This document shows positions 2,083-57,252 of a stretch of DNA of 64,000 nucleotides, one piece after another. Position 1 is the first letter of the stretch; each line of letters begins with the position of its first letter. A program made the position numbers and the translations under genes. This DNA is from Dehalococcoidia bacterium (GTDB lineage Bacteria > Chloroflexota > Dehalococcoidia > DSTF01 > WHTK01), in the NCBI GenBank assembly GCA_035714925.1, contig DASTLN010000126.1:5106-69105 (forward strand), written 5' to 3'. A model generated the notes under the pieces. It ran no database searches, was not told where the DNA came from, and worked only from the letters and a program-made list of their open reading frames with translations.

Positions 2083-2335
2083 GATCCGCCCTCGATCGCC
2101 CGATGTCGAGTTCCTCGCTCAGCGCCCGGTGTGCCAGCGGCGGGTTGCAGGCGCCAATGATGTCGTAGCGGCGAAAATCGACGCCCAGCTTCGGCTGCAG
2201 CGTCTCCTTGATGTCGATCTCGGTGAGGACGCCAAAGCCCTCCGCCTTGAGAGCGTCCTTCGTCGTGGTAAGCGCTTCATCGTAGGTAAAGAGGCCGCGT
2301 GTTCGCTGCTGCATGACTTCACCTCCATCGACCAT
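2057..2335 (-). CDS. DUF302 family protein, apparently C-terminally truncated (convergent 26-nt overlap with the phoD-like gene)
   Basis: 92 aa matching the DUF302 core (GFGVLTEIDIKETL...VDFRRYDIIGACNPPLAHRAL). Ends before the conserved C-terminal segment. Possibly a pseudogene or short variant. Confidence 0.45.
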   Translation of the reverse strand: MVDGGEVMQQRTRGLFTYDEALTTTKDALKAEGFGVLTEIDIKETLQPKLGVDFRRYDIIGACNPPLAHRALSEELDIGRSRADLRANGRLQ

Positions 2336-2408
2336 CTTCAGGCTGGCCTGCTGCCGCAGCGAGAACGCGGGTCAAGGGTCGCGAAATCGGGGCTGTTCGG
2401 CCCCAGAA

Positions 2409-3266
2409 TCACGTGGCAGCGGCATTGCGGCGGTAGATAAACCAGTAGACCGCGCCGACCAGAAGACCGCCGCCGACGAGGTTGCCGACCGTCACGGGCA
2501 GGAGGTTGTTGAGCAGGAAGCTGCCCCAATCCAGCTCCTCGAGCGCGCCGGAATTGAGGCCTGCGGCGACCAGGACCGCGTCCTGCGACTTTAGCAGCAG
2601 CCCCAGCGGGATGAAATACATGTTGGCGACGCTGTGCTCGTAGCCACTGGCGACGAACGCGGTGATCGGGAAGACGACGGCGATTGCCTTGTCCAGGTTG
2701 CTGCGCGCGCTGTAGGTTAACCAAATCGCGAGGCAGACCAGCCCATTGCAGAGTACGCCGAGGAAGAAGGCTTCTTCGAAGCCCAGGTTGACTTTGGCGT
2801 TGGCGATCCGCAGGGCGTTGGCGCCGACGTCGTAATCAGCGAAGCGCCACTGGCCCGACAGCGCCACGAGTATCGCCGTCGCGACCGAGCCGACGAAATT
2901 GCCGGCGTAGACCACCACCCAGACACGGAGCAGCTGCGCCGTGCTGACGCGGTTGCCGGCCCAGGCCATGACCATCAGGTTGTTGCCGGTGAACAGCTCG
3001 GCGCCGGCTGTGACGACGAGGATGAGGCCAAGGCTGAAGGCGACACCGCCTAGCAAACGCGCCGGGCCGTAACCAAGGTCCGTCGATGTCGTGACGGTGG
3101 TGAAGAAATTGGCGCCCAGCCCAATGAAAGCGCCAGCGAGGACCGCTAGCGCCGCCAAGTTGAGCAGCGGCAGACCGGCCTTGGCGGCGCCGATCGACTC
3201 GGCGCGGGCCGCCATTTCGGCGGGCAACAGTGGGTCGAGCGAGGCGTGCTCGGGCGGCCCGTTCAC
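2409..3266 (-). CDS. formate/nitrite transporter (FNT family, FocA/NirC-like)
   Basis: 285 aa, 6-TM FNT signature (FTGNNLMV..., GYEHSVANMYFIP). ATGA overlap with the upstream CoA-transferase gene. Confidence 0.85.
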   Translation of the reverse strand: MNGPPEHASLDPLLPAEMAARAESIGAAKAGLPLLNLAALAVLAGAFIGLGANFFTTVTTSTDLGYGPARLLGGVAFSLGLILVVTAGAELFTGNNLMVMAWAGNRVSTAQLLRVWVVVYAGNFVGSVATAILVALSGQWRFADYDVGANALRIANAKVNLGFEEAFFLGVLCNGLVCLAIWLTYSARSNLDKAIAVVFPITAFVASGYEHSVANMYFIPLGLLLKSQDAVLVAAGLNSGALEELDWGSFLLNNLLPVTVGNLVGGGLLVGAVYWFIYRRNAAAT

Positions 3267-4546
3267 AGCAGGTGAAGGCTCCGCGCCGAGGCGGCAAGCT
3301 CGTCACGAAACGCTGGATGCGCGATGTCGATCAGTCCCCTTGCTCTTTCCCGCAGCGTGCGCCCATGCAGACTCGCGATGCCGTACTCCGTAATGACGTA
3401 CTGCACGTCGCCACGCGTCGTCACCACTCCGGCCCCCGGCTGCAGCTCTGACACAATGCGCGAAATGCTTCCGCCGCGCGCCGTGGACGGCATTGCGATT
3501 ATCGCTCTTCCACCTCGCGAGCGAGCGGCACCGCGTACGAAATCCAGCTGACCACCAATGCCGCTGTACAACACGTGGCCCATGCTGTCGGCGCATACTT
3601 GGCCTGTCAGATCGATCTCAATCGCCGAGTTGATCGACACCATCCGATCGTTACGCGCGATCAAGAACGGGTCGTTGGTAAACGTCGTGGCGTGCATCTC
3701 TATCATCGGGTTGTCGTCGACGAAGTCGTACAGACGACGTGAGCCAATAACGAAGGACGCGACGACCTTGCCGGGGTGGTAGCTCTTGGCTGAGCCGTCG
3801 ACTGCGCCGCCCTCGATCAAGTCCAGCAGGCCGTCGGAGAACATCTCCGTGTGTACCCCCAGTCGCTTGTGCCCCGTCAGCGAAGCGAGTACGGCATTCG
3901 GGATTGTGCCGATCCCTGTCTGAATCGTTGCGCCATCCTCGATTAGCGAGACAACGTGGCGCCCGATACTGAGCGCCACTTCGTCCGGTTCAGGACAGGA
4001 TACTTCGGTCAATTCCGCCGTCGACTCGACGAGGTAATCGATCTGCGAGACGTGAAGAAAGCTATCGCCGTGCGTCCGGGGCATGCGCGGGTTGACCTGT
4101 GCGATCACGGTGCGTGCGGCCAACGAAGCCGGACGTGCGCAGTCGACCGAGATACCCAGGCTGCAGTAACCCGATTGGTCCGGCGGCGAGACCTGGATCA
4201 GTGCGACGTCGAGTGGCAGGGTGGTCTCGAATAGGTTTGGGACATCGGATAGCAGGACCGGCGTCACGTCTGCTCTTCCTTCCCGTACAGCCTCTCGCGC
4301 GTTCGCCCCGACGAAGAGCGCGTTGTGGCGAAAATGTCCTGTCATCTCCGGCCTCGTGTAGGGCGCCGGCCCTTCGGTATGCAGGTGGACGATCTCGACG
4401 TCCCGCAGCTCGTCCTTGCGGGCCATCAGCGCTTCCACCAGCGCGAACGGCACCGCGCAACCGCCCTGCACATAGACACGGTGACCTGTCTCGACCACCG
4501 CGAGCGCTTCTGCTGCAAATACGGTTCGTGACCCTGGACCTGCCAT
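3263..4546 (-). CDS. acetyl-CoA hydrolase/transferase family protein (Cat1/ScpC-like CoA-transferase)
   Basis: 427 aa with family-typical conserved blocks (GIGTIPNAVL..., EMFSDGLLDL). Co-operonic with the FNT channel. Confidence 0.85.
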   Translation of the reverse strand: MAGPGSRTVFAAEALAVVETGHRVYVQGGCAVPFALVEALMARKDELRDVEIVHLHTEGPAPYTRPEMTGHFRHNALFVGANAREAVREGRADVTPVLLSDVPNLFETTLPLDVALIQVSPPDQSGYCSLGISVDCARPASLAARTVIAQVNPRMPRTHGDSFLHVSQIDYLVESTAELTEVSCPEPDEVALSIGRHVVSLIEDGATIQTGIGTIPNAVLASLTGHKRLGVHTEMFSDGLLDLIEGGAVDGSAKSYHPGKVVASFVIGSRRLYDFVDDNPMIEMHATTFTNDPFLIARNDRMVSINSAIEIDLTGQVCADSMGHVLYSGIGGQLDFVRGAARSRGGRAIIAMPSTARGGSISRIVSELQPGAGVVTTRGDVQYVITEYGIASLHGRTLRERARGLIDIAHPAFRDELAASARSLHLL

Positions 4547-18662: not shown

Positions 18663-20006
18663 TCAAGGCGTAGCCGGGCCGACCAGTTCCTCCCGCGGAG
18701 GGGAAGGCTGGCGCACGAATAAGAGCAGGATCAGCGCCGTCGTGAGGTAGGACACGGAGAGCGCCATGAACAGCAGGCGGTAGCCACCGGTGATGTCGAA
18801 GACGAGTGCGCCGATGAACGGTCCCGCGCCGAGCCCGAAACTGGCAAACGTCTGGAAGAAGCCGCTAATCGAGCCGAAGTTGCCGCGACCGAAGTAGCTC
18901 GCGAGCAGCAGGTTGAACAGCGTGCCGCCGCCGCGCGTCGTCAGACCGTAAACGGCGCTGACGCCAAGCGCCATCGCTCCGCTGTTGACTCCGAGCATCG
19001 CAAGGACGGCGAGGGAGCCGGCGAACGTCAGGCCGGCTGCCAGCAGCCGCTCGGAGATGCGCTCCGACAGCAGGCCCCAGAGGCCGCTGGAGAACGCGCC
19101 CGCCAGCGTGAACGTGCTGATCGTTGCAGCTGCGACCGTGGGCGAGAGGCCGAGGTCCTGGTAATAGGCCACCTGGTGAAACGAGACGGCGCCGCCGCCG
19201 AGGATGGAGAGGAAGCTGGCGACGACGATGAACCAGAAGACCCGCGTATGCAGGGCTTGCTTCAGAGTGAAGTCGTATTCGCCTGCCATGACCTCCCGTC
19301 GCGCAGGCCCGCCGCCCGGCGCCCGGGCAACGGGCGGGCCAGATGCTCCATCCGGGAACAACCCGAGCTCCTCCGGACGCTTGCGCAGCAGCAAGTAGCC
19401 GGGTGCGATGATCAGGACCGCCGCGAGCGCGCCGAGAAGGAAGAACACCTCGCGCCAGCCGGCCTGGTCCGTGATCCATTGCGCTAGCGGCGCCTGCACG
19501 GAATTGGCGAGCGGAAGCGTCATGACTATCAAGCCCATGGCCCGGCCGCGCTTCGTGGCGAACCAGTTCACTATCGTCGTCTGGGCGCCGACGTTGGTGA
19601 GGCACGGCGAGGCGATACTACGAGCGAGGATGTATGCGAGGTAGAACTGCCACAGCGCATTGACGCCCGCCAGCGCGAAGAAGGCTATAGAGAGCAGGAC
19701 GCCTCCCACCGGTACCAGGATGCGCGGACCGTAGCGGTCGGCGAGGCGTCCCACGAATGGGCTGACGAAGCCGATGCCGATGGTACCGAGGCTGATCGCG
19801 GTGGTCGCTTCCGTGCGGCTCCAGCCAAACTCCTCGGTCATCGGCCGCAGCATCACGGCCATGAACGGCTGCGTGCTGCCGGCTGCGATGGAGCCGGCCA
19901 GCATCATCATGCCGAGGACAACCCAGCCGTAATAGAAGGGAAGGCTGAGGAGCGCCCTCATGATTGCGGTATGTCTTCTCGACGAAGCCTCCATAGCTCG
20001 CCGCAT
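18663..20006 (-). CDS. MFS transporter
   Basis: 447 aa, 12 TMs, MFS motifs (GRLADRYGPR). Confidence 0.8.
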   Translation of the reverse strand: MRRAMEASSRRHTAIMRALLSLPFYYGWVVLGMMMLAGSIAAGSTQPFMAVMLRPMTEEFGWSRTEATTAISLGTIGIGFVSPFVGRLADRYGPRILVPVGGVLLSIAFFALAGVNALWQFYLAYILARSIASPCLTNVGAQTTIVNWFATKRGRAMGLIVMTLPLANSVQAPLAQWITDQAGWREVFFLLGALAAVLIIAPGYLLLRKRPEELGLFPDGASGPPVARAPGGGPARREVMAGEYDFTLKQALHTRVFWFIVVASFLSILGGGAVSFHQVAYYQDLGLSPTVAAATISTFTLAGAFSSGLWGLLSERISERLLAAGLTFAGSLAVLAMLGVNSGAMALGVSAVYGLTTRGGGTLFNLLLASYFGRGNFGSISGFFQTFASFGLGAGPFIGALVFDITGGYRLLFMALSVSYLTTALILLLFVRQPSPPREELVGPATP

Positions 20007-20108
20007 GATATCGTAAGTCGATATTGCTGCAAGAGCCTTGACATGACGGGTTCATATGACACAATCGCCATGCGTTATCGGCTTTCGAGAACAGACGGAG
20101 GCAGACCA

Positions 20109-20519
20109 ATGACCTCAGGCGGGCTCTTCTACTCGCGCGACGACACCGACGCTGTCGCCGAAGCGCAGCTGACATACTCGAACCCGCACGGCCAGCGCGT
20201 GGGTCCGCGCTGGGTGCGCGGCGAGGTCGTCTTCGCAATGCCCCTCGGCATCGTCAACGTCGACCCGGCGACGACGCGCTGGGCCAAGGAGTACGTAGTC
20301 GTGTACAGCACCGATGGCGGGCCGGAGGGCAGACCGGAGCGTGTGCCGGGCCAGTTCGGCATCTACGACTCCAAGCCCGGCGACGACAACTACAGCCCGA
20401 TCTGGCGTTACAACTACGTCATCGTGCCGCGCGACTACGAACCGAACGCGCTGAAGTCCGAGGACGATTGCCTCAATTCCGACTATCCTGTCATCGAGTC
20501 CGACGTTTACACCAATTGA
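20109..20519 (+). CDS. hypothetical protein
   Basis: ATG at 20109 preceded by GGAGG at -8 (track ORF 19971 overlaps the MFS gene). No family recognised. Confidence 0.5.
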   Translation: MTSGGLFYSRDDTDAVAEAQLTYSNPHGQRVGPRWVRGEVVFAMPLGIVNVDPATTRWAKEYVVVYSTDGGPEGRPERVPGQFGIYDSKPGDDNYSPIWRYNYVIVPRDYEPNALKSEDDCLNSDYPVIESDVYTN

Positions 20520-20582: not shown

Positions 20583-20924
20583 ATGGCAGGGACCAGCGGG
20601 TTCGACCATATCGCCATCGCCGTGCCGGACCTGGACGCGCAGGTTGAGCGCCTGACGGCCGCGTTCGGAATGGTGGTCCAGAGCCGCTCCGAGCGCTACG
20701 CACTCTTCGCCGACCCGGCGTCCGGCTTCAAGATCGAGATGAACCTATCGGAGGACGGCGAGGCCCGCTTTCGCCATCTGGGCTTTCGCTCGGCCGACGT
20801 GGACGGCGAGCATCAGACGCTGCTCGACGCCTCGAGTCTGAAACCCGACACCGGATCCGCCACTTTTTCGTGGCTAGCAGCAGAACGGTTTGCACACCAG
20901 TGCATCGGCGCGATGCGATTGTAA
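20583..20924 (+). CDS. VOC/glyoxalase family protein; its last ~65 nt are duplicated at 24701-24770
   Basis: 113 aa, glyoxalase-like N-terminus (FDHIAIAVPDL). AGGAGG RBS. Confidence 0.7.
   Translation: MAGTSGFDHIAIAVPDLDAQVERLTAAFGMVVQSRSERYALFADPASGFKIEMNLSEDGEARFRHLGFRSADVDGEHQTLLDASSLKPDTGSATFSWLAAERFAHQCIGAMRL
20853..20924 (+). repeat. direct repeat copy A (3' end of VOC gene), ~92% identical to 24701-24770
   Basis: Sequence ccgccacttttt-cgtggctagcagcagaacggtttgcacaccagtgcatcggcgcgatgcgattgtaa versus the copy at 24701-24770, which differs at about 6 positions. Confidence 0.8.
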
Positions 20925-21130
20925 CCCGATCCTCTCACGCGGGAGTCAGTTTAGCCATGAGGCTCTTGTGGTCGTCGCCGATCGTGATCGAGCGGAGCGA
21001 CCGTCGAGTACCTGAAGGTCGGTAAATCTCTGGCGATATCGCCTAGTCTTCTCGACCTGAGATGTCTTTTGGTAGATTCATAACCCGAGCTTGGTAGCTA
21101 TGTCCCACTCAGAATGCGCAGGCAGGCGTT

Positions 21131-21586
21131 CTATCCATCCGTGGCCGGCAGCTTGGATTCGCCGCCCGCCCCAGGCCCGTCGAGCAACTTGACGTCTCGG
21201 CGCTCCAGCGGTTCGCCGCACTCCGAGCAAGTCACGACGGTCGTGGCGACGCGGCCACAGCGACGATGCAGGAGCTGCAAGGGAGGGCCATTCGGCGACT
21301 CCCAGCGGTCACCCCACTCACGCAGGGCCGTGAGCACCCGCCACAGGTCCGCGCCCTTCTCGGTCAGGCGATAGTCGAACCTCACCGGGCGCTCCTGATA
21401 GGGCACCTTCTCCGCCACGCCGGCTTCGACCAGCCGGTTGAGGCGCTCGGTCAGGACGTTGCGGGCGATACCCAGACGCTCCTGGAAGTCGTCGAAGCGG
21501 GAGACGCCCAGAAACAGGTCTCGGAGGAGAAGCGGCGTCCACCACTCGCCGATCACCTCGAGTGACCGGGCGACGCTGCAGTTCAT
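21131..21586 (-). CDS. HxlR-family (MarR-like wHTH) transcriptional regulator with C-terminal CxxC zinc-ribbon tail
   Basis: HxlR signature (TPLLLRDLFLGVSRFDDFQERLGIARNVLTERL). Divergent from the MFS gene. Confidence 0.75.
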   Translation of the reverse strand: MNCSVARSLEVIGEWWTPLLLRDLFLGVSRFDDFQERLGIARNVLTERLNRLVEAGVAEKVPYQERPVRFDYRLTEKGADLWRVLTALREWGDRWESPNGPPLQLLHRRCGRVATTVVTCSECGEPLERRDVKLLDGPGAGGESKLPATDG

Positions 21587-21663
21587 TCCTTCAAAGCTCG
21601 TACGGCGCATACCAGCATCCTAATGGGTTGCGTTATAAAACTCAATGGCCTACAGTGCGTTGC

Positions 21664-23118
21664 ATGACGAAACTCACTGCCGCCCTCGATCCTCCAGGGC
21701 CCGTGGCGCGACCCGGGTGGCGGACGCTCGCGATCGCCAGTCTCGCCGTGCTCGCGACCTTCCTGGACGCCACGGCGCTGTACGTTGCCTTTCCCGACAT
21801 CGGGCGCAGCTTCGGGTCCGTTTCGGCGGCATCGCTATCCTGGGTGCTCAACGGTTACACGATCACCTTCGCCGCCCTCCTGGTACCGGCGGGGAAGGTC
21901 GCCGACCGAGTCGGTCACAAGCAGGCGTTCCTTGCTGGGTCGACGCTGTTCACGCTGGCGTCCCTGCTGTGCGCGCTTGCGCCCAACATCGAGCTCCTGG
22001 TGGCTTTCAGGCTCGCCCAGGCGGCTGGCGCCGCGGCGTTGCTGCCATCCTCGCTGGCGCTGGTCCTGCGCGCTTTCCCCCGAGAGCAGCTGCCGTTGGC
22101 CGTGGCGGTCTGGGGCGCCGCGGGAGCCGCCGCCGGCGCACTTGGCCCCACGCTTGGAGCGGCGGTGGTAGAGGCTGGCGGCTGGCGTTGGGTCTTCCTG
22201 ATAAACCTTCCCGTCGGCCTCGTCACGCTTGGAGCCGGCCTTCGCCTGCTCGCGGAATACAAGGACCCGGGTGTGCGCCTCCCGGCTTTCGCCGGCATCG
22301 GGCTCGTCGCGGCGGGAGCTGCCCTGGTTTCTTTGGGCGTAGTGCAGAGCGACGCCTGGGGATGGACGGACGGCCGCGCGCTGACGGCAATCGGGGGCGG
22401 CGTGGCGATTCTTGCGCTTTTCGTCGTCAGCCAGCGGCAAAGTGACGCTCCGGTGCTCGACCTCGATCTGTTCGCATCGGCCAACTTCCGTTGGGCGAAC
22501 CTGGCGACCCTGGCCTTCGGTGCTGCGTTCACCGCGATGTTCTTCGGCTCTGTCCTCTTTCTCACTCAGGTATGGCAATGGTCCGTCCTGGAGGCCGGAC
22601 TCGGCATCGCCCCGGGTCCCTTGCTGGTAGCCCTCCTGTCACCCGTCTTTGGCCGGGTAGCAAGGGGGAAGGGACAGCGGCCGCTGCTGATTCTGGGCGG
22701 CATCTCGTTTGCCCTCGGCGGCCTCTGGCGGCTGGTGGCACTGGATGAAACGCCCAATTACCTCGTCGATTACCTGCCGTCCATGCTCTTTACGGGCACA
22801 GGTGTGGCGCTTTGCCTGCCGCAGCTGTCGAGCGTGGTGGCCCAGTCCCTCGCCCCGGGCCGGCTGGGCGTTGGCAGCGCCCTGCACCAGTCAGCGCGCC
22901 AGTTCGCCGGCACGCTTGGGGTGGCGCTCACCATCGCGCTCGTCGGGCAAACGTCGCCGCCGGAGGACGGCCTGCCGGGCTTCGACCTGATCTGGTGGCT
23001 GATAGTCGCCGGCGGCCTAGCGACCGCGCTCCTAGTCCTTCCTTTACGCACGCATCCGCAGGTGGCAGAAGAGCGGATCACTGGCTCGCTAGCGCAGCCG
23101 GGACAGCGGGCAACGTAG
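21664..23118 (+). CDS. MFS transporter, DHA2 (EmrB/QacA-like, 14-TM) drug-efflux family
   Basis: About 485 aa from ATG at 21664. 14 hydrophobic segments. MFS motif GKVADRVGHK. Confidence 0.8.
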   Translation: MTKLTAALDPPGPVARPGWRTLAIASLAVLATFLDATALYVAFPDIGRSFGSVSAASLSWVLNGYTITFAALLVPAGKVADRVGHKQAFLAGSTLFTLASLLCALAPNIELLVAFRLAQAAGAAALLPSSLALVLRAFPREQLPLAVAVWGAAGAAAGALGPTLGAAVVEAGGWRWVFLINLPVGLVTLGAGLRLLAEYKDPGVRLPAFAGIGLVAAGAALVSLGVVQSDAWGWTDGRALTAIGGGVAILALFVVSQRQSDAPVLDLDLFASANFRWANLATLAFGAAFTAMFFGSVLFLTQVWQWSVLEAGLGIAPGPLLVALLSPVFGRVARGKGQRPLLILGGISFALGGLWRLVALDETPNYLVDYLPSMLFTGTGVALCLPQLSSVVAQSLAPGRLGVGSALHQSARQFAGTLGVALTIALVGQTSPPEDGLPGFDLIWWLIVAGGLATALLVLPLRTHPQVAEERITGSLAQPGQRAT

Positions 23119-23137
23119 ATGTCCTGAGAGGGCAGAA

Positions 23138-24022
23138 ATGCAACCCCATGAGTTTCCAGGTACGACGTACGTGACCACGTGGAGCAACGGCCGAGGCGAG
23201 GTTCGTTTCTTCACACGGTCCGATGGTTCACGGCTACGCTACTTCACCACAGGCGATGGTCCGCCCCTCGTTCTAATGCACACCGTTCGGACGCAGCTAG
23301 ACTACTTTCAGCGCGTGATTACGCGGGTGTGGGACCACTACACGGTCTACGCGCTGGATCTCCCCGGGATGGGATGGTCCGACATCGTCCCTGGCGCATG
23401 CTACGAGGAGCCGGATCTGCGCGCCGCGGTGGTCGAATTCGTGACTGGACTGGGCCTTCACGGCGTCACACTGGCGGGTGAATCGCTCGGAGCTGCCCTC
23501 GCATTGTCCGCATCGATCGATCTCGGCGACAGAGTCAGCCGGGTCGTGGCGTTCAACGCCTACGACTACCCCAGTGGATTGGAGCGCGGCAACTGGCTCG
23601 CCCGTTTCATCATCACCTGTGTACGGCTGCCCTTGCTAGGGCCGGTTTTCGCGCGCCAAGAGCCCCGGCCCATCCTGCGCGCGGTACTACAAGGCGGCTT
23701 CATCGATAAGACCAAGTTGCCTGAGGACTTCGTGGAAGAGCTCTTGAGGAGCGGACGCCGCGAGAATTACTCAACGGTGGCCCGGGCAGTCTACCGCAGC
23801 CTCAAGGGATTCAATCGCGCGCGGCGACGTTACCCGGAAGTATCGGCTCCGGTCACCCTCGTCTACAGCGACCGTGACTGGTCTCGGCCTGCCGAGCGAG
23901 ATCAGGTAGCAAGCTCGTTGGCGAATGTTCAACGGATCGCGCTGCACCACACCGGCCACTTCTCCTCGTTGGAGCGCCCTGACGACGTCGCGCGGATTCT
24001 ACTTGGCGCTGTCGGGAGCTGA
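23138..24022 (+). CDS. alpha/beta hydrolase
   Basis: 294 aa. HGG-type oxyanion region and nucleophile elbow GESLGAAL. Confidence 0.8.
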   Translation: MQPHEFPGTTYVTTWSNGRGEVRFFTRSDGSRLRYFTTGDGPPLVLMHTVRTQLDYFQRVITRVWDHYTVYALDLPGMGWSDIVPGACYEEPDLRAAVVEFVTGLGLHGVTLAGESLGAALALSASIDLGDRVSRVVAFNAYDYPSGLERGNWLARFIITCVRLPLLGPVFARQEPRPILRAVLQGGFIDKTKLPEDFVEELLRSGRRENYSTVARAVYRSLKGFNRARRRYPEVSAPVTLVYSDRDWSRPAERDQVASSLANVQRIALHHTGHFSSLERPDDVARILLGAVGS

Positions 24023-24597
24023 GCGCGGATCCAGAGAACAAACACCGTGCCCGGCAGATACTTCGCGCCTCGGACCAGCTTCGCCCGCGGCCATCGCTGC
24101 GCCCGCTCACCAGCATGCCCAGCCCGTTGCAGAACTACGACGGCAGCCGCCTCTAGCGCTGCGTCCGCGACGCGTGGACCTTGAGTCAACGATTCATTGC
24201 CGCTCCGTCCAGTGTGGAGATGGCAGGCCAGTTCGTCCTCACCGGCGAAATGGCCCCGCCACGTTAGACCGGGCTGTCGGCGTCCCTGCCTCGAGTGCAA
24301 CTTTTCCAACCAGCGAAGCTCTTGACCGTCAGCCAGTGGTTCCCCGCCGCTATTGGGCCATTCAACCTGATGACGGCGTCACGACGATCAGGGAGTGCCT
24401 CAGGCAGTTCGCCCACGCTAACTACCTAAGATGCGTGAACCCACGCGACCGTCGCGTGCGGTTAGCGTGACCGAAAGCAGCAGAACGGTTGAGAAGGCGG
24501 CGTAACGGTTTAAGGGACCCCGCAACCGTCAGGCGGTCATGCGTAAACGACAAGCGTGCCGATTCGAGTCTGAGACCGATACGCTGCTAGGCGGAAG

Positions 24598-24650
24598 TGG
24601 CGTCCCTGGAGGGATTCGAACCCCCGACCCGCCGCTTAGAAGGCTCAGTA
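24598..24650 (-). other. tRNA 3'-end-like fragment (variable loop, T-arm, acceptor 3' strand, CCA) with no matching 5' half
   Basis: Minus strand reads GGGTCGGGGGTTCGAATCCCTCCAGGGACGCCA, with canonical GTTCGAATC T-loop and CCA. No complementary acceptor 5' strand or anticodon arm could be folded upstream. Confidence 0.5.
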
Positions 24651-24700
24651 GCGGGAACTACTTGGCGGCGTAACGGTTTTGAATCTGAGAACCGGCCCCA

Positions 24701-24770
24701 GATCCGCCACTTTTCGTGGCTGGCAGCAGAACGGCTTGCACGCCAGTGCATCAGCGCGATGCGATCGTAA
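24701..24770 (+). repeat. direct repeat copy B (pseudo 3' end of VOC gene), partner of 20853-20924
   Basis: Same frame would encode FSWLAAERLARQCISAMRS*, against ...FSWLAAERFAHQCIGAMRL* in the intact gene. Confidence 0.8.
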
Positions 24771-25042
24771 TGCTGGTTGGTGGCACTCTCTACCCGGTAG
24801 GAAGGATCAACGGATTAGGTAGCTAGATAGAGCGCCTTAGTCCGCCGGTCCAACCTGAATCTGAAGCAGCCGCGCCACCGTGCGACTTCGACGTGAGTCC
24901 GTTGGTCTAATTCGACCGCCGCTCGTGAGTTTGCCAGCGTTGGCCGGCGTTTGCACCGGCTTGCCCCGTTTGTCTTCAAAGGTTGGCAGTTCCGGACGAC
25001 GGCGTCCGCAATGCGCTCAGGTGTATTGTGGTGGCGTGCGGT

Positions 25043-31699: not shown

Positions 31700-31740
31700 C
31701 GCGCCTCTCCTCCTTGGGCGACCGCAGCCGCCACGTCCGA

Positions 31741-32877
31741 TCAGCCGAACGCCGACTCGGGCTCGAGGCCAAACGCCCAGCGTGCATACGCGAGGCCCCT
31801 CGGGTCCCAGTTGCAGGCGTGAGTGGAGATGGCGTGGATGTCGCGCCCCGCCCGGTGGATCGGGTTGTTGACATCGATGGCATGCGCGCCGACCGCGGGT
31901 AGCAGGCGATCGACTGCTTGCACGCATAGCTTCGTGGCGTAACCCAGGTCGCGCTCCCATCTGGCCAGCTGCTCTGGGGTCATCTCGCCTTCGGAGTGGC
32001 CGATTGTCACCATCTCATTCATGTCGGCGCGCATCAAAGACAGGGCCGCGTCGACCTCAGCCGATGACTCGGCCAGGCGCATCTGACGACCCACTGTAGG
32101 CGGTCCCGGTCTTGCGTTCATCTGGCTGACATATTCCTCGACGGCGCCCCGGGCCACACCCAGCGCGGGGCTCGAGGTGTTGATAAAGAAGAAGGGTATG
32201 AACGGGATTCGGTAGATGTAGGACTCGTGTAGTGAGGCACCCGGTCTGGCCCCCCACCCCGAGGTCCAAGCCTCCGGCACGAACGCGTCCTTGACGTCGA
32301 CGTCCTTGCTGCCCGTCCCTGCCAGGCCCATCGGGTGCCAGGAGTCGTGATCGATCTCGAAGTCGCGCTTGTGTACCAGGCACCAGGGCGCCCGCCTCTG
32401 TTCACCCTCCAGCGGCCCGCTGAGGAGGATCCACTCCGCGAAGTCGCAGCCGCTGGAGAACTGCCATCGGCCGTTGAGCAGGTAACCGCCCTCAACGCGC
32501 CTGATCTTCCCGGTCGAAGGCGACACCGCGGTGGTCATGAGCGTGTCGGGGCCCGTGCTCCAGACTGCTTCCTGGGCGGGCTCCGGCATCATGCCGAGCA
32601 GCCAGGCGTGGCAGGTGACGACCGAGAACACCCATGCGCTGGAACCGCAGGCGCGACCGATCTGGTTGCATAGCTCGACCTGCGTGAGCCCGTAGTCCAG
32701 CTCGAGGCCGCCGTAGCGCCTGGGCACAAAGACGCGAAGGAAGCCTGCTTCCTTGAATTCGTCGATCGTCTCCTGGGGCAGGCGGCCCTCGGCTTCGGCG
32801 CGGGCGGCCCGTTGCTTCAACGCCGGAAGCATGTCTTCGGCTCGATCGGCGAGTTCGGCGATGGTTGGTGTTTTCAT
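31741..32877 (-). CDS. acyl-CoA dehydrogenase-type flavin-dependent monooxygenase, oxygenase component
   Basis: Start is the internal ATG at 32877 (MKTPTIAEL...) with a GAGGAA RBS. ACAD N, middle and C domains. Paralog of 44932..46092. Confidence 0.8.
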   Translation of the reverse strand: MKTPTIAELADRAEDMLPALKQRAARAEAEGRLPQETIDEFKEAGFLRVFVPRRYGGLELDYGLTQVELCNQIGRACGSSAWVFSVVTCHAWLLGMMPEPAQEAVWSTGPDTLMTTAVSPSTGKIRRVEGGYLLNGRWQFSSGCDFAEWILLSGPLEGEQRRAPWCLVHKRDFEIDHDSWHPMGLAGTGSKDVDVKDAFVPEAWTSGWGARPGASLHESYIYRIPFIPFFFINTSSPALGVARGAVEEYVSQMNARPGPPTVGRQMRLAESSAEVDAALSLMRADMNEMVTIGHSEGEMTPEQLARWERDLGYATKLCVQAVDRLLPAVGAHAIDVNNPIHRAGRDIHAISTHACNWDPRGLAYARWAFGLEPESAFG

Positions 32878-32935
32878 CTGGTTCCTCACGTATGCCGGGC
32901 TCGCCAGAGTTAGGTGAGCAGCGACGAAGCGACGC

Positions 32936-34138
32936 TCATGGCCACAGCTGCCGCGTAGCCAGGCGGGCTCCTTCCGCCAGCGCGCCAAACTTGGCCCAGA
33001 CGACGGTCGGGTGGATGTCGGGCTGGCCGCCGCCGCCCGCTGCGAAGCCGCAGTCCGCGCCTGCGATGACGTTCTCACGCCCGGCGATCCTGGCGTATCG
33101 GCAGATGCGTTCGGTGACAAGCTCCGGATGCTCCACAAGGTTGGTGGTGTGTGAGATAACGCCGGGGATCAGCACCTGCCCATCGCGGAGCTTGACGTCC
33201 TCCCAGAGGTGATACTCGTGCTCGTGCCGCGGGTTCGATGCCTCGAATGAGTAGGCGCCGGCATTTATCGTCACCAGGATGTCAATCATGTGCTTCAGCT
33301 CGATGTCGTAAACGCGCGGGCCGATGTCGATGCCGTAGCAGGTATGAAAGCGCACGCGGTCGAGGGGGATGTCGCGCAAAGAATAGTTGGTGATTTCGGC
33401 CGAGCGCTGCGCCCAGGCTCGTGCCTCCTCGATGCTCTTGTCTGGGTGCATCGTCCAGTACATGATCATGCGCGGCTCGTCGACTTGTAGCGTCAGGCCG
33501 GCGTCGATGATGGCGCAGTACTCCTCGTACATCGCGTCGGCTAGCGCCTGGTGGTACTCCTCGTCACTCTTGTAGAACTCGTTGGGGCGGGTCGCGGCGA
33601 TGTAGGCGGCGCCGAGCGATGGCATGAACAACTCTTCGTGGGGGAGCCCTTCTGCCGCTGCCTTGAGTCGTCCGATGTCCCTGGTGACGGCCGAGTGGCC
33701 TTTGTACTTCACTGGCCCTACACAGGTCACGATGCCACCGAAGCCGCCGCCGGTGGTCCCGCCGCCGGCAGGGGCGCCCTGCGGCGCGTTGCGGGCGTAG
33801 AACTCGGGGAAGGCGGCCGCTTCGCGCGTCCCCGCCCAGGGGCCGCGGCCCGCCAGGGTTGAAGGCCGCAGCTCGAAACCCTCCAGTCGCGAGTTGACGT
33901 AGCCGTTGAAGCTGAGCTTGCCCTGCTCGCCATCGTCGATGATGTCGATTCCGGCTTCTGCCTGCTTCTTGACTACCTCGCGCACAGCCTCGTCAATTTC
34001 GCGCTCCAGTTCGGCCGCGTCGTGCTCTTGCCCGCTTTCGCGCGCCCGGATCATCGCCGAGAGGTCGGGACTGCGGGCCAGGCTACCGACATGAGTCGTG
34101 AGGATGCGTTCCGTACTTCTGTTCACGCCTTTTCCCAA
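32936..34138 (-). CDS. MetE-like (cobalamin-independent methionine synthase C-terminal domain family) Zn-dependent methyltransferase
   Basis: 400 aa, Meth_synt_2-like. Zn ligands conserved (FHTCYG, E, ADCGF). Paralog at 39583..40824. Confidence 0.8.
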   Translation of the reverse strand: MGKGVNRSTERILTTHVGSLARSPDLSAMIRARESGQEHDAAELEREIDEAVREVVKKQAEAGIDIIDDGEQGKLSFNGYVNSRLEGFELRPSTLAGRGPWAGTREAAAFPEFYARNAPQGAPAGGGTTGGGFGGIVTCVGPVKYKGHSAVTRDIGRLKAAAEGLPHEELFMPSLGAAYIAATRPNEFYKSDEEYHQALADAMYEEYCAIIDAGLTLQVDEPRMIMYWTMHPDKSIEEARAWAQRSAEITNYSLRDIPLDRVRFHTCYGIDIGPRVYDIELKHMIDILVTINAGAYSFEASNPRHEHEYHLWEDVKLRDGQVLIPGVISHTTNLVEHPELVTERICRYARIAGRENVIAGADCGFAAGGGGQPDIHPTVVWAKFGALAEGARLATRQLWP

Positions 34139-34183
34139 CTAGGCCCACCGCAAAGCGGGCTGTCCACAAGAGGGGGAAGCCCG

Positions 34184-36001
34184 CTAGGCGATCGGCGGCT
34201 TGCTGGGGTCGAGGAACCACCGCGCGTAGTTCTGGTACGCCTGAGCGTAGACGTTGATGTTCCGCATCGCCGGCCAGTATGCGGTGAATGTAGTGGCTGC
34301 CCCCATGCGCGGGAAGACCTGCTTCTCGGCCTCGTAGCGCTGGAACTCCCAGGTCAGCTCCTTGCGCTTCTCAATGTCGAACTCGGCGATCGACTTTTCG
34401 ATCAGGTCCGTCATCTTGTCGTCCGTGAGCCCTACTTGACCTCCCGATGGGTGATAGTAGGTGAAGAGGTACTGCGTGGGGTCCATCGGCTGGTTGGCGT
34501 AGTAGTGAGCGAGGCCGTCGAACTCTGCTTTGCCGCCCTGATATTTCGGGATGAATTCCACCACGCGGTCGTGAGGCGCGAACTCCCCCTTGAAGAGGCC
34601 GCTGTTGTTTACCTGCCCGGCGACCACCTCGTTCATGCGTTGCCACAGGGCGTTGATGCCTGGTTGTGGGTGGTGAATCTTGAAGGAGACTCCCTCAGGG
34701 AAGCCGGCTGCCTCCACCAGGCGTTTTGCCTCCGCGAGATCGAACTGGAAGTATTTGGCGTTTGGACCAATCTCGGACTCATCCCTGGCGTTCAAGAACC
34801 AGCTTTGCCAGTGGTTGGCCTGGATGCCACTCTCGTAGGCGGTGCCAACCGGGAAGCCCTCAGCTTCGAAGGCAGAGATGTTGTAGAAAGCGTCGAGGAT
34901 AGCCTCGCGGTCCCAGGTCATCACGTAGGCCTGGCGCAGGCGCTCGTCCACGAACGGACCCTGCCTCCCAGGTATCACGTGCCAAAGGATGCTCGTCATG
35001 ACCGGCGTCGGGGTGATCTGGATGTCGGGGATGTCGCGCTTGGTTGGCAGGAGGTCCTCCGCGTTGACGTCGTACTGGTAGATGGCTCCGGTCCGGAATT
35101 GGGCCAGGCCGGCGGCGTACTCGCCGAGGATCGGCGCCTCCATCGTATCCATGTAGGGGAGGCCTTCGTGGGGATATCCCGGGTTCGCCTTCCAGACGGA
35201 TCTCACAGAGGGCTCGTATTCGTCCATGTACCACGGCCCGGTGCCCAGCACACTCCGCGACGGGTCATGGACCGCGGGATCGGTGGATTCCTTGGGAACG
35301 ATCCAAAGGCCGCCCAGGAAGTTCAGGCCAAACATACTGAGCGTGGGCGCAAAGGGAAACGCCAGGTCGACCCGGACCGTCTTGGAATCGATTGCGGTGG
35401 CGGAGGTTATCGGTGCCGCGGGGCTAAACGAGTTAAAGAATTCGAACCGACGGTTGCTGACCTCGGAATGGCGCTGGAGCGTGACCACGATGTCCTCAGC
35501 GTCGACCGTGCGGCCGTTAACGGGCGCGAGGGGCGGCCAGCCCGCGTTTTCCTTGATCTTGAAGGTCACCGAGAGCCTGTCGGGCGCCATCTCCCAGGAC
35601 TCGGCGACATCCCCCTCGACCTCACCTTGCGGCGGCCCGAGCACACCCTCGACCTCCTTGAGGAGGCCGGAGTAGGCGCGGAAGGTTGTCGCGGCGTTGC
35701 CGCCGATGCTTTGCGGCTCAAAGGTGAAGAAGTCGGCGTCCTCAAAGTGCTTGAACACGCCGCCTTTGAGAGCCTGCGCCGACTCATCCTTCCCGGGCGT
35801 AAGAAGGCTGCTGACCTGGGGTTCCTGGGTCGCCGCCTGGCCGTTGCTCTCGGCGGTTGATCCGGGCGAGGTGGCGGGCGGTTTCTCGTCCTCGCCGCCA
35901 CAGGCGGCGAGCAGGACGGCTCCCAGTCCGAGGGAGCCCATGCTTGCCAGGGAGCGGCGGCGGGTTAGGCGGCGGTTGGCGACGCGATGCCAGTAGTTCA
36001 T
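34184..36001 (-). CDS. ABC transporter substrate-binding protein, family 5 (DppA/OppA-like), Tat/lipoprotein signal
   Basis: 605 aa. N-terminal RRRSLASMGSLGLGAVLLAACGG lipobox. No cognate permease or ATPase genes are nearby. Confidence 0.85.
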   Translation of the reverse strand: MNYWHRVANRRLTRRRSLASMGSLGLGAVLLAACGGEDEKPPATSPGSTAESNGQAATQEPQVSSLLTPGKDESAQALKGGVFKHFEDADFFTFEPQSIGGNAATTFRAYSGLLKEVEGVLGPPQGEVEGDVAESWEMAPDRLSVTFKIKENAGWPPLAPVNGRTVDAEDIVVTLQRHSEVSNRRFEFFNSFSPAAPITSATAIDSKTVRVDLAFPFAPTLSMFGLNFLGGLWIVPKESTDPAVHDPSRSVLGTGPWYMDEYEPSVRSVWKANPGYPHEGLPYMDTMEAPILGEYAAGLAQFRTGAIYQYDVNAEDLLPTKRDIPDIQITPTPVMTSILWHVIPGRQGPFVDERLRQAYVMTWDREAILDAFYNISAFEAEGFPVGTAYESGIQANHWQSWFLNARDESEIGPNAKYFQFDLAEAKRLVEAAGFPEGVSFKIHHPQPGINALWQRMNEVVAGQVNNSGLFKGEFAPHDRVVEFIPKYQGGKAEFDGLAHYYANQPMDPTQYLFTYYHPSGGQVGLTDDKMTDLIEKSIAEFDIEKRKELTWEFQRYEAEKQVFPRMGAATTFTAYWPAMRNINVYAQAYQNYARWFLDPSKPPIA

Positions 36002-43954: not shown

Positions 43955-44908
43955 TTAGACCGGCGGCGCCACCCAAAGGCCCGTGTCGGGCTGACGCATC
44001 CGGGTCGAGGGCAGGTCTCCGGCCTGTGCCTGCCTGGCGGGTGGGTCCATCTGCGTGCCCGCAGGCCGGCCGGGCATCTGGGCCGTGCCCCACATGTCGG
44101 TCGGTGGATGCTCGCGCGGCGTCCAGGCGCTTTCGTCCGTGATCTGCTCAACTTCCGAGGTGTACTCGGAGACGTTGCCCTGGGGATCGAAGAAGTAATA
44201 GAAGGTGTTGTCGCCGGCCGAGTGCCTGCCGGGGCCCATCAGGATGCGCGCGCGCCCATCCTTCATCACACGCCCGGACCCGCGCATCATGTCGTCAATG
44301 CTGCCCACTTCGAACGCGACGTGGTTCAGCGTCGCGACTTCTCCGTCGGCGATTGCAAGGCTGTGGTGATTGGCGTTGCAGCGGTAGAAGCCCATGAAAG
44401 GGATCCAGTCCGAGAGCTTGAAACCCAGGCGTTCCGCGTAGAACGCCTCGACCTCCTTGCGGTTGGGTGAGTTCAGCACGACGTGGTTGAGGGTAACCGG
44501 TATTCCCTCGCGGGGTTCGACCTCTCGGAAAGACCTTTGCTCCACCCCAGCCGACACTTCTACGACGCGGCCGTCGGGGTCGAAGAAACGGAAGCCATAG
44601 CCGCCGCCCGGCGTTTGCAGCTGGCCGGGCTCGGACACGAAGCGAACTCCGGCTGCCGCGAGGTCGGCGGCGAGCTGGTCAATGTCTTCGGGGGAGTCGG
44701 CGCCCAACGCGATCAGGTCGAGGCGCTTCTCGTCCGCCTTCCGGATTCGGTAGACGTATTGCTCGGGAGAACCTTCCGCGGCGAGGAAAGCGATGTCCTT
44801 CTCGCCGTCCGTCCGCTTCAACCCCCAGACACCGCCATAGAAGTCAACCTGCTGTTCGAAGTCTGGTACGGCCACGTCTACGTGCCTGAGACTGCTTACT
44901 TTCGCCAT
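43955..44908 (-). CDS. extradiol ring-cleavage dioxygenase (two-domain VOC, catechol 2,3-dioxygenase-like)
   Basis: 317 aa with tandem VOC domains (HVDVAVPDF..., LNHVVLNSPN..., LNHVAFEV). Confidence 0.8.
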   Translation of the reverse strand: MAKVSSLRHVDVAVPDFEQQVDFYGGVWGLKRTDGEKDIAFLAAEGSPEQYVYRIRKADEKRLDLIALGADSPEDIDQLAADLAAAGVRFVSEPGQLQTPGGGYGFRFFDPDGRVVEVSAGVEQRSFREVEPREGIPVTLNHVVLNSPNRKEVEAFYAERLGFKLSDWIPFMGFYRCNANHHSLAIADGEVATLNHVAFEVGSIDDMMRGSGRVMKDGRARILMGPGRHSAGDNTFYYFFDPQGNVSEYTSEVEQITDESAWTPREHPPTDMWGTAQMPGRPAGTQMDPPARQAQAGDLPSTRMRQPDTGLWVAPPV

Positions 44909-44931
44909 GAGTATCCTCCGTCTAATGAGTG

Positions 44932-46092: not shown

Positions 46093-46164
46093 GGGGGCCC
46101 TCCAAATTCAACTTGCTCCCTGCGGCTAGGGTTGGAGTATATTGGCGCAATGAGCATCTACAAA

Positions 46165-46179
46165 ATCGATATTTGCGAT
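46165..46179 (+). promoter_or_regulatory. LysR-type T-N11-A box (ATCGATATTTGCGAT) in the divergent promoter
   Basis: ATC-N9-GAT interrupted dyad about 35-50 bp upstream of the LysR start, between divergent operons. Confidence 0.4.
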
Positions 46180-46211
46180 GCTTACCATGCACCTGCTTCA
46201 TGGAGGCCTGG

Positions 46212-55916: not shown

Positions 55917-56627
55917 CTCAGCTTCGAATCGAAGGAAACGGGCAACTTCCCTGGCCGCAAACACGACCATGCGCGACCGCACACTGTTCCTAGACCCAAC
56001 GAAGGCGCCGCTGAACGGGGAGGCCTGGTGCGGGGCCGCGTAAGACCGCCGGACTCTGGATCGCTACTCCCTTCAATTTGTATAAGAAATGTGTAAGAGC
56101 TGGAGGACCCTGGGGACTTAGCGTCTTCCAATAGGGAGGCGGTTACGCCGGCGCAGCGCCTTTGTGTGCGGGAGACAAGAGACTCACCTGTGGCTAAGAA
56201 ACAAAAGGCGATGCTTCGCGCACAATGATGCGCACGCGCGCACGTCCTAGGCGATCTTAGATTAGTCACCGGAGGAGACGCGAGTAAGCCTCAGGTCGCG
56301 TGAGCCAGTACGCGTCGACGACATCGCCCGATCTCTGGGCGATGGAGGACACCGACTGGCCGCGGGGGCGATTATTGAAGGTGGCCTCAAAGAGGTTGTT
56401 TCTGCGGTTCTGGGGCGTGTTAGCACTTACCTCCGAGGGCGCGAGCAAGCAGTCCGACCGATGGATGAGTCAAACCGATAGATGAGTCAACCAGTACCAC
56501 CGCTCGAAAGGCGGCGTAACTGTCTCGCCGCTGACCTTCGCAACGATTTACTCAGACCCAATCGAAACAGTCGAACCGGACTTCAGGAGCAGCTCGCTTA
56601 TATCTGCCGGCAGGAGCCATTCAGGGT

Positions 56628-56940
56628 GCGTGAACAGCACGTGACGTCTGCGTGCGGTCAGCGCGATGGAAAGCAGCAGAACGGTTGGGGAAAGCAGCAG
56701 AACGGTTTGGGGGCGCTCTCCGCTCTGTCAGGCGATCCTGCGTAAACGAAAGCGTGCCGATTTCGAATCTCGGGCGCCCCTCAACCCGGCCGGGATGACC
56801 GACGGATTAAAAGGTAGCTAGATACGTCGCCTTAGTCCGTCGGTCCATTTTGAACCTTAATCGACCGGGCCACCCGCCGGGACCTTTCGACATGAGTCCG
56901 GTGGTCTATTTCAGCCGCCGTTCATGAGTTTACCTATGTT
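56628..56940 (+). repeat. non-coding interspersed repeat copy R-c (direct orientation relative to R-b)
   Basis: Aligns to the flanks of 24430-24960. Begins with tandem GAAAGCAGCAGAACGGTT x2. Contains a 10-bp perfect inverted repeat GACCGACGGA...TCCGTCGGTC. Confidence 0.7.
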
Positions 56941-57252
56941 GGCGAGCGTTCGCACACTCTCGATCAAACCGGATATCCCTTGTGCCCTTGAAACCTTTTG
57001 AGGCACGCGATCTCGCCGCAATGAAGGTTAAGGTTCATGATTTTGGTGGCGAGGACCCAGCCAATGTTTTCGTGCCAAAACCCATCTGCGACAGGTCCAC
57101 CGCAGTCGCCGCGGCGTCACTCACGAGGCCAAGGTTCAATTGCGTCCGATCGCCTGGCTGCGTTAGCCGCGTGAGCCTTGGTGACGCTGATCACATAGCC
57201 CCGCAGACCGAGGCTCGATACTGTTCAATGATCTTGCAAACTCCGGAGCGCG

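What the first reader, a model, noticed from the sequence alone, without database searches (positions are those of the whole stretch)
20853..24770. 65-70-bp duplication of the 3' end of a VOC gene flanks a 3.8-kb HxlR / DHA2-efflux / alpha-beta-hydrolase module
The last ~65 nt of the VOC gene (20853-20924, ...FSWLAAERFAHQCIGAMRL*) recur at 24701-24770 with about 6 substitutions, several of them synonymous. Between the copies lie a HxlR regulator, a 14-TM MFS exporter, an alpha/beta hydrolase and about 700 bp of non-coding DNA with dubious ORFs. This is the classic footprint of integration into the 3' end of a protein-coding gene, where the element reconstitutes the gene end and leaves a pseudo-3'-end at its far side. 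It suggests modular accretion at this hotspot: module 1 at 20.9-24.7 kb, then the 31-kb island.
Basis: seen in the sequence. Interest (0 to 1): 0.55.

Follow-up and report, generated by a model that had tools for sequence, protein, structure and literature searches.

The report
Decayed tandem islands at tRNA-Arg gene
The repeated 90 bases are not the end of the VOC gene but an internal arm of two integrase-less genomic islands stacked at a tRNA-Arg(TCT) gene, one of which cut off the VOC gene's true end; this is an ordinary kind of event, seen here in an uncultured soil Dehalococcoidia.

Summary
The repeat is real and longer than reported: 20834-20924 matches 24681-24770 (79/91 identical). It is not the native 3' end of the VOC gene. 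All 52 homologues end with a different, conserved 35-residue tail. The window's ORF leaves them at codon 84, exactly where the repeat (U) starts, and the native tail is absent from the window.

Two contigs from a sister sample explain the locus. L005 (97% identical) has an intact VOC gene followed 23 nt later by a convergent tRNA-Arg(TCT), which is the empty site. L094 carries the same HxlR-MFS-hydrolase module (95% identical) between 50-nt direct repeats of the tRNA's 3' half. Its order is tRNA fragment, 34-nt spacer, U, three genes, arm R_L, intact tRNA.

In the window, R_L is followed by a tRNA 3' half (24596-24644) broken in the anticodon stem, 2 nt from the L094 break. A spacer, U_B and a 31-kb catabolic block follow.

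So U is the left arm of two tandem, integrase-less islands. Accretion is supported. Integration into the VOC 3' end with reconstitution of that end is not.

This is a new member of a known kind.

The parts
20583..20833 (+). 5' 84 codons of a VOC/glyoxalase-family gene. It is truncated; the annotated ORF runs on to 20924 through foreign sequence.
   Evidence: Pfam matches cover residues 6-82 only. All 52 homologues align to about 73% of the ORF and have a different 35-residue tail. 97.3% nt identity to L005 up to 20831, then none.
20834..20924 (+). U_A: left-arm segment of island 1. It supplies a fortuitous 29-codon tail and stop codon to the truncated VOC ORF.
   Evidence: 86.8% identical to U_B and 82.8% to the U of L094 (174-263). 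Collinear with L094 from here through the hydrolase at 95.1%. Contains one GCAGCAGAACGGTT unit.
21131..21610 (-). HxlR-family regulator (cargo of island 1)
   Evidence: PF01638, E = 4e-21. Same gene in L094 at 472-951.
21664..23118 (+). MFS transporter (cargo of island 1). The start codon is uncertain.
   Evidence: PF07690, E = 4e-46. L094 1005-2456.
23138..24022 (+). alpha/beta hydrolase (cargo of island 1)
   Evidence: PF12697/PF00561. 93% identical to the L094 protein P0055.
24366..24565 (+). R_L: right-arm segment of island 1, with two 14-nt units 20 nt apart (start to start; 24477 and 24497)
   Evidence: 83% identical to L094 3383-3578, where it directly precedes the trailer and the intact tRNA. 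77% identical to 56627-56762.
24566..24595 (+). Boundary motif C2 (GAGTCTGAGACCGA) plus a diverged tRNA trailer
   Evidence: Aligns with L005 375-403 (VOC stop plus trailer) and L094 3573-3604.
24596..24644 (-). 3' half of tRNA-Arg(TCT), from the CCA end to the anticodon stem. It is the att remnant at the junction of islands 1 and 2.
   Evidence: 48/51 identical to the 3' half of the intact L094 tRNA and 44/51 to the L005 tRNA. Not a complete tRNA. The break is 2 nt from the break in the left fragment of L094.
24645..24680 (+). Spacer at the left end of island 2, with one GCGGCGTAACGGTT unit (24665-24678)
   Evidence: Collinear with L094 140-173. Unit count.
24681..24770 (+). U_B: left-arm segment of island 2
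   Evidence: L094 91-263 matches window 24598-24770 at 83%. Alignment A6.
24788..24956 (+). R_R: sequence next to U_B inside island 2, repeated at 56780-56955
   Evidence: 75% identity over 176 columns. Not related to the sequence after U_A.
56627..56955 (+). R_right: R_L joined directly to R_R, without the tRNA half or U. Two units in tandem, 21 nt apart. Probable decayed junction at the right end of the 31-kb block.
   Evidence: No tRNA or Rfam family.

Best explanation
The locus is a decayed tandem array of integrase-less genomic islands that integrated by site-specific recombination into a tRNA-Arg(TCT) gene lying convergent to, and 23 nt downstream of, the VOC gene.

Each island of this family has the same ends. 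The left end is a spacer followed by U. The right end is R_L, then a trailer, then its own copy of the tRNA 3' half. Integration therefore leaves a tRNA 3'-half fragment on the VOC side and rebuilds an intact tRNA on the far side.

Island 1 (U_A, HxlR, MFS, hydrolase, R_L) integrated first. Island 2 (spacer, U_B, R_R, about 31 kb of aromatic-catabolism genes) then integrated into the tRNA rebuilt by island 1. That left the tRNA half at 24596-24644 as a chimeric junction. The two U copies are thus homologous left arms of two related islands. They are not a target-site duplication.

Later, a roughly 215-nt illegitimate deletion removed VOC codons 85-118, the trailer, island 1's own tRNA fragment and the spacer. 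This fused VOC codon 84 to U_A, which happens to stay open for 29 codons.

Shown here: the empty site, the occupied site with 50-nt direct repeats, the collinearity of arms, the VOC breakpoint and the absence of recombinase genes. Inferred: the order of events, the deletion, mobilisation by an integrase encoded elsewhere (probably a tyrosine recombinase acting at the anticodon-loop sublocation), and the clustered 14-nt units acting as its arm-type binding sites.
For: 1. The VOC ORF follows its homologues to residue 84 and then diverges. P0002 is 99% identical over residues 1-83 and has the native tail.
2. L005 has an intact VOC gene and a tRNA-Arg(TCT) on the minus strand at 405-481.
3. L094 has 50-nt direct repeats (90-139 and 3605-3654, 92% identical) that bracket a 3,515-bp unit holding U, HxlR, MFS, hydrolase and R_L. 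The right repeat is part of an intact tRNA-Arg(TCT).
4. The flank beyond the L094 tRNA is homologous to the flank in L005, so both are the same chromosomal site.
5. The left L094 fragment matches the L005 tRNA 3' half at 49/50 over the 50-nt repeat (100% over 49 nt by BLAST; chromosomal version). The right L094 repeat and the window fragment share a different T-stem (element version). This is the pattern expected from integration.
6. The window segment 24598-24770 is collinear with L094 91-263: tRNA half, spacer, U.
7. The unit GCRGCRKAACGGYT occurs 7 times in the window and 4 times in L094, against 0.01 expected in each. All copies lie in the junction regions.
8. No recombinase domain was found in any large ORF of the window or of L094.
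9. U_A and U_B are 87% identical, whereas the module is 95% identical between lineages. The two arms therefore diverged before the lineages did.
Against: 1. No intact tRNA-Arg(TCT) and no second tRNA half is present in the window or in 10 kb to its right, so the right end of island 2 is not defined by an att site. R_right lacks both the tRNA half and U.
2. No integrase of matching specificity was found, and no further family members appeared in two metagenome scans, four viral scans or 80 reference-genome loci.
3. The three U copies are mosaic, which shows that homologous exchange also acted here.
4. The empty site rests on a single 541-bp contig. The VOC/tRNA-Arg adjacency was not seen in more distant relatives.
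5. The left flank of L094 is neither VOC nor clearly R_L.
6. GC content gives no island signal.
Confidence: 0.75

Rival explanations
1. First reader's model. A 3.8-kb element integrated into the 3' end of the VOC gene. U is the att-type duplication, the element rebuilds the gene end, and a pseudo-3'-end is left at the far side.
For: Two direct copies of about 90 nt bracket the three genes, and one copy forms the end of the annotated ORF.
Against: The U-encoded tail is unrelated to the conserved native tail of all 52 homologues. The native tail is absent from the window. In L094 the same module is bounded by tRNA-Arg halves and U is internal. In the empty site the VOC gene is followed by the tRNA, not by U.
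Confidence: 0.03
2. Only one site-specific integration happened. The second tRNA-half/U copy and the R copies arose by segmental duplication and homologous recombination within the genome. The 31-kb catabolic block is resident chromosome, not an island.
For: The U copies are mosaic. The R copies are only 75-77% identical. The 31-kb block has no mobility genes, no compositional signal and no att at its right end.
Against: The window's tRNA half is broken within 2 nt of the position broken in the left fragment of L094, as expected for a second site-specific event. U_A and U_B are more diverged (87%) than orthologous module DNA between lineages (95%). The sequences after U_A and after U_B are unrelated.
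Confidence: 0.15
3. U and R are members of a dispersed non-coding repeat family (MITE/REP-like) or encode a small RNA, and merely happen to sit here.
For: Short hairpins can be drawn in U. The 14-nt unit is strongly over-represented.
Against: All copies lie at this one locus type, next to tRNA-Arg halves. There are none in 91 other loci, two metagenome scans or four viral scans. U folds no better than shuffled sequence on either strand (z between +0.1 and -1.4). No Rfam family matches. No terminal inverted repeats were found.
Confidence: 0.05
4. Assembly artefact. The repeats caused chimeric joins in a metagenome-assembled contig.
For: A sister assembly breaks at 21872-21891 inside the MFS gene. 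The source is a MAG.
Against: VOC|U_A is reproduced in L010, which differs by 12 mismatches and so is an independent assembly. L094, from another sample, is collinear across the break point. The tRNA-half/U_B junction is present in L092/L093.
Confidence: 0.02

Closest known systems
CIMEs (cis-mobilizable elements) and site-specific tandem accretion, first described for ICESt1-related elements of Streptococcus thermophilus (definition as given in PMC5704250)
   Same: The elements lack integration and transfer genes but are bounded by att repeats (the L094 copy). A second element has integrated into an att site of the resident one, giving a tandem array with a chimeric internal junction (window 24366-24770).
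   Different: The host is an uncultured soil Dehalococcoidia. The target is a tRNA-Arg(TCT) gene rather than the 3' end of a protein gene. No partner ICE or IME and no integrase were found. In the window island 1 has lost its attL, so it no longer meets the CIME definition.
Dehalococcoides ssrA-specific genomic islands (PMC3146451)
   Same: They belong to the same class (Dehalococcoidia). They form tandem islands bounded by direct repeats of the 3' end of a small structured-RNA gene. Several islands lack an integration module and were proposed to be CIMEs. The cargo is catabolic or respiratory.
   Different: The target there is tmRNA (ssrA), with a 20-bp repeat and insertion in the T-loop. The integrase is a CcrB-like serine recombinase (DsiB). 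Here the target is tRNA-Arg(TCT), the repeat is 50 nt and reaches the anticodon stem, and the recombinase is unknown.
tRNA-gene-targeting islands and prophages with tyrosine integrases, anticodon-loop sublocation (classification recalled from Williams 2002, Nucleic Acids Res; my own knowledge, not checked here)
   Same: The identity block runs from the anticodon stem-loop to the CCA end. The intact tRNA is rebuilt from element-borne sequence. The displaced 3' fragment stays at the other end. Clustered short repeats flank the core, as arm-type sites do.
   Different: No integrase gene is present. The arm homology (U, R_L) is unusually long, and the unit repeats have not been tested for binding.

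Membership tests
Genomic island integrated in a tRNA gene | The element is flanked by direct repeats consisting of the 3' part of the tRNA gene | tested here: met
   L094 has 50-nt repeats at 90-139 and 3605-3654, 92% identical. In the window only one tRNA half survives (24596-24644).
Genomic island integrated in a tRNA gene | An intact tRNA gene is reconstituted at one end | tested here: met
   The intact tRNA-Arg(TCT) lies at L094 3606-3681. This is not met in the window itself, nor within 10 kb to its right.
Genomic island integrated in a tRNA gene | An empty site exists in a close relative | tested here: met
   L005 has an intact VOC gene followed by tRNA-Arg(TCT). It is 97% identical to the window over the shared VOC part, and its flank beyond the tRNA is homologous to that of L094. 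This rests on a single 541-bp contig.
Genomic island integrated in a tRNA gene | An integrase gene lies next to an att site | tested here: not met
   No recombinase domain was found in any large ORF of the window or of L094.
CIME (cis-mobilizable element) | It lacks integration and transfer genes | tested here: met
   The cargo is HxlR, MFS and a hydrolase only.
CIME (cis-mobilizable element) | It retains both attL and attR | tested here: inconclusive
   Met for the L094 copy. Not met for island 1 in the window, whose left tRNA fragment is missing. For island 2 only attL is seen.
CIME (cis-mobilizable element) | It is excised or transferred in cis with, or in trans by, a functional element | not testable with these tools
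   This needs read-level or experimental evidence of circular forms.
   The tail encoded by U is unrelated to the conserved native tail. Sixteen invariant positions are lost. There is no native tail in the window.
Dispersed repeat (MITE/REP) or structured RNA | Many dispersed copies, or a conserved fold | tested here: not met
   Copies occur only at this locus type. Fold z-scores lie between +0.1 and -1.4. No Rfam hit.

The most novel reading that the evidence does not exclude
U, R_L and the clustered 14-nt units define a previously undescribed family of small, integrase-less, tRNA-Arg(TCT)-specific cargo elements in soil Dehalococcoidia. They would be moved in trans by an unidentified integrase that recognises the long repeat-studded arms, and they would help spread cargo such as the alpha/beta hydrolase, which is more than 80% identical across named members of three phyla.
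Probability: 0.2. Interest if true: 0.5.

Novelty: new member of a known kind. Interest (0 to 1): 0.3.

Why it matters
The result corrects an attractive but wrong reading. The annotated 'VOC family protein' is a truncated gene fused to island DNA, not a gene repaired by an element. The real hotspot is a tRNA-Arg(TCT) gene that no longer exists at this position in this genome. It documents tRNA-targeted tandem accretion of integrase-less islands in an uncultured soil Dehalococcoidia lineage. So far the comparable evidence in that class is for ssrA islands of organohalide respirers. It also gives concrete att and arm sequences with which the missing integrase and other family members could be sought. 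It does not reveal a new mechanism.

Tried and rejected
- **tmRNA or permuted tmRNA.** Relaxed ARAGORN proposed a 'tmRNAp' at 24641-24901 with an implausible tag. There is no similarity to a genuine Chloroflexi tmRNA from L004. Rejected.
- **Complete or unusual tRNA in the window.** None at default settings. Only a sub-threshold mascRNA-like hit over the tRNA half. The GGGGGCGC/GCGCCCC stem with a T-arm-like hairpin in R_right is not called by ARAGORN or Rfam. Left unexplained.
- **U as a structured RNA or attC-like site.** It folds no better than shuffles. Rejected.
- **My own idea that U on the plus strand is homologous to the tRNA acceptor end plus trailer.** Only the 16-17-nt unit is significant. 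Dropped.
- **Native VOC tail elsewhere in the window.** tblastn found nothing.
- **Further copies of U, R or the att site.** None in viral contigs, JGI metagenome contigs or 91 fetched loci.
- **Empty sites in reference genomes.** Among the 80 VOC loci, the 48 closest were scanned for tRNAs and none has a tRNA-Arg after the VOC gene. L096 was too short to tell.
- **The module on plasmids.** Only single-gene matches at 66-69% identity.
- **Homology between R_R and the sequence after U_A.** Not significant.
- **L094 left flank as VOC tail or R_L.** Only the 17-nt boundary motif is similar.
- **Composition.** No island signal.


Full report
**Observation.** The repeat is real.
- It extends leftwards. 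20834-20924 (U_A) matches 24681-24770 (U_B) at 79/91 with one single-base indel.
- Between the copies lie an HxlR regulator, an MFS transporter and an alpha/beta hydrolase, followed by about 660 bp without a supported ORF.

**U is not the end of the VOC gene.**
- Pfam VOC models match only residues 6-82 of the 113-residue ORF.
- A search of 5.8 billion proteins returned 52 homologues besides the protein itself. All are 104-130 residues long and align to only about 66-79% of the query.
- In the alignment the window's protein follows them to ...HQTLLDA (residue 84) and then diverges completely. Homologues continue with a conserved tail, GMxEVEAPHRRDFARMRTSFLRExNGLEFQLVKYD, which holds 16 invariant positions.
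- P0002 is 99% identical over residues 1-83 and has this native tail.
- Residue 84/85 corresponds to nt 20834, the first base of U.
- The native tail is not encoded anywhere in the window.
- The annotated 'VOC family protein' is therefore a truncated gene fused to foreign sequence that happens to stay open for 29 codons.

**The empty site.**
- P0002 is encoded on L005, a 541-bp contig from a sister sample. It is 97.3% identical to the window up to nt 20831 and unrelated afterwards.
- In L005 the intact VOC gene stops, and 23 nt later a complete tRNA-Arg(TCT) gene lies on the opposite strand.
- The window has no tRNA gene at all. It does keep, at 24570-24644, an 84%-identical copy of 'VOC stop, trailer, tRNA 3' half' that ends in the anticodon stem.

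**The occupied site.**
- The closest homologue of the hydrolase (P0055, 93%) lies on L094. This is a 16.7-kb contig from the same sample as L005.
- L094 is 95.1% identical to window 20834-24041, that is U, HxlR, MFS and hydrolase.
- Its layout is as follows.

| L094 coordinates | Feature |
|---|---|
| 90-139 | tRNA-Arg 3' half; 49/50 identical to the L005 tRNA (100% over 49 nt by BLAST) |
| 140-173 | 34-nt spacer |
| 174-263 | U |
| 472-3360 | HxlR, MFS, hydrolase |
| 3383-3578 | R_L, the segment that precedes the tRNA half in the window |
| about 3579-3604 | boundary motif and trailer |
| 3606-3681 | intact tRNA-Arg(TCT) |

- The two tRNA halves form 50-nt direct repeats, 92% identical and 3,515 bp apart.
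- The flank beyond the tRNA's 5' end is homologous between L094 and L005, so they represent the same chromosomal site, occupied and empty.
- The left fragment carries the chromosomal T-stem version. The right, intact tRNA carries a different version, which is also the one in the window. This is the expected outcome when an element brings its own copy of the tRNA 3' half.

**Reading the window with this key.**
- Window 24598-24770 is collinear with L094 91-263: tRNA half, spacer, U.
- Window 24366-24644 is collinear with L094 3383-3652: R_L, trailer, tRNA 3' half.
- So 24366-24770 is a right end fused to a left end. This is the chimeric junction expected when a second element integrates into the tRNA rebuilt by the first.
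- The tRNA is broken within 2 nt of the position broken in the left fragment of L094.
- After U_B comes unrelated DNA (R_R), then about 31 kb of aromatic-catabolism genes: HpaB, amidohydrolase_2, FAA hydrolases, CoA-transferase, thiolase and an extradiol dioxygenase.
- U_A and U_B are therefore homologous left arms of two related islands. Their 87% identity, against 95% for orthologous module DNA between lineages, fits old divergence rather than a fresh duplication.
- At the VOC side, island 1's own tRNA fragment, the spacer, the trailer and VOC codons 85-118 are missing. This is about 215 nt by comparison with L005 plus L094. I infer an illegitimate deletion, and no convincing microhomology marks it.

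**Arms and motifs.**
- A 14-nt unit, GCRGCRKAACGGYT, occurs 7 times in the window and 4 times in L094. Only 0.01 is expected in each.
- In the window all seven lie in the three junction regions. In L094 all four lie within about 150 nt of a tRNA half. Some are in tandem 20-21 nt apart, and one is inverted in the trailer (I3).
- A second short motif, GA(A/G)TCTGA(A/G)ACC, sits at several module boundaries.
- This is what arm-type recombinase sites look like, but that is inference only.

**What is missing.**
- No recombinase domain occurs in any large ORF of the window or of L094.
- No intact tRNA-Arg lies in the window or 10 kb to its right.
- The third repeat region, R_right (56627-56955), is R_L joined directly to R_R, with neither the tRNA half nor U. 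It may be a decayed junction or an ancestral form, and I cannot tell which.
- The three U copies are mosaic, so homologous exchange also occurred.
- No further copies of U, R or the att site were found in viral or JGI metagenome collections, in 80 reference-genome loci or on plasmids.
- U shows no RNA fold signal and no Rfam match.

**Artefact check.**
- L010, an independent assembly with 12 mismatches over 11.3 kb, carries the VOC|U_A junction.
- L094, from another sample, spans the point where one sister assembly breaks.
- L092/L093 carry the tRNA-half/U_B junction. They are 100% identical to the window and so may not be independent.

**Comparison with known systems.**
- The architecture matches the published definitions. 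[quoted passage not shown] Accretion is integration of another element into an att site of a resident one (PMC5704250).
- Within the same class, Dehalococcoides carries tandem islands bounded by 20-bp repeats of the ssrA 3' end. Several of them lack integration modules and were proposed to be CIMEs (PMC3146451).
- The present case differs in target (tRNA-Arg(TCT)), in repeat length (50 nt, reaching the anticodon stem) and in the unknown recombinase.
- In the window island 1 has lost its attL, so it is a fixed remnant rather than a CIME in the strict sense.

**Verdict.**
The proposed mechanism, integration into the VOC 3' end with reconstitution of that end, is wrong.
- This is a new member of a known kind and of modest interest.

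Noticed in passing
window 23138-24022: The alpha/beta hydrolase has more than 3,600 homologues at E <= 1e-30. The best 120 are all at least 79% identical. Named sources span Dehalococcoidia, Casimicrobiaceae and Vicinamibacterales. Gene contexts differ; L095 has MarR-Fer4-hydrolase. It is either unusually conserved or widely exchanged between phyla.
   Followed up: partly
window 56627-56955: R_right joins R_L directly to R_R without the tRNA half or U. It holds two AAAGCAGCAGAACGGTT units 21 nt apart. A 10-bp stem (GGGGGCGCUC/GGGCGCCCC) encloses a T-arm-like hairpin (CCGA-TTTCGAATC-TCGG). It is not called as tRNA or tmRNA and matches no Rfam family.
   Followed up: partly
window 21872-21891: In the sister assembly ERZ27256989 two contigs (20 kb and 75 kb) end here, inside the MFS gene, with about 20 nt of overlap. 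The window and L094 run through. This may reflect strain variation at this point.
   Followed up: no
window 20583-20924: NCBI names the truncated ORF 'VOC family protein'. It has lost 35 C-terminal residues, including 16 invariant positions, and has no precomputed Pfam domain. It is probably a pseudogene.
   Followed up: yes
window 31700-36000 vs 44900-49100: There are two paralogous catabolic sub-clusters. Direct repeats D2, D7 and D12 link the acyl-CoA-dehydrogenase-like genes at 32274-32475 and 45492-45810 (both minus strand). Inverted repeats I1, I4 and I5 link the SBP_bac_5 genes at 34797-35245 and 48017-48471, which lie on opposite strands. Amidohydrolase_2, FAA hydrolase, Meth_synt_2-like and metallo-beta-lactamase genes are also duplicated.
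   Followed up: no
window 24023-25042 and 55917-57252: Two non-coding stretches of 1.0 and 1.3 kb, unusually long for this genome, contain the junction repeats. ORFs within them have no Pfam support.
   Followed up: partly
L094 1-89: The flank left of the L094 tRNA fragment is neither the VOC tail nor clearly R_L. Only the 17-nt boundary motif (ATCCGAATCTGGAACCG) resembles its own right arm (7 of 500 shuffles reach the score). L094 may itself be part of a longer array.
   Followed up: partly
window 19971-20519: The mechanical 182-residue ORF upstream of the VOC gene is called as a 136-139-residue gene in sister contigs and relatives. It is syntenic with MFS(-)/VOC(+) in L001-L003. The longer ORF start is probably spurious.
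   Followed up: no
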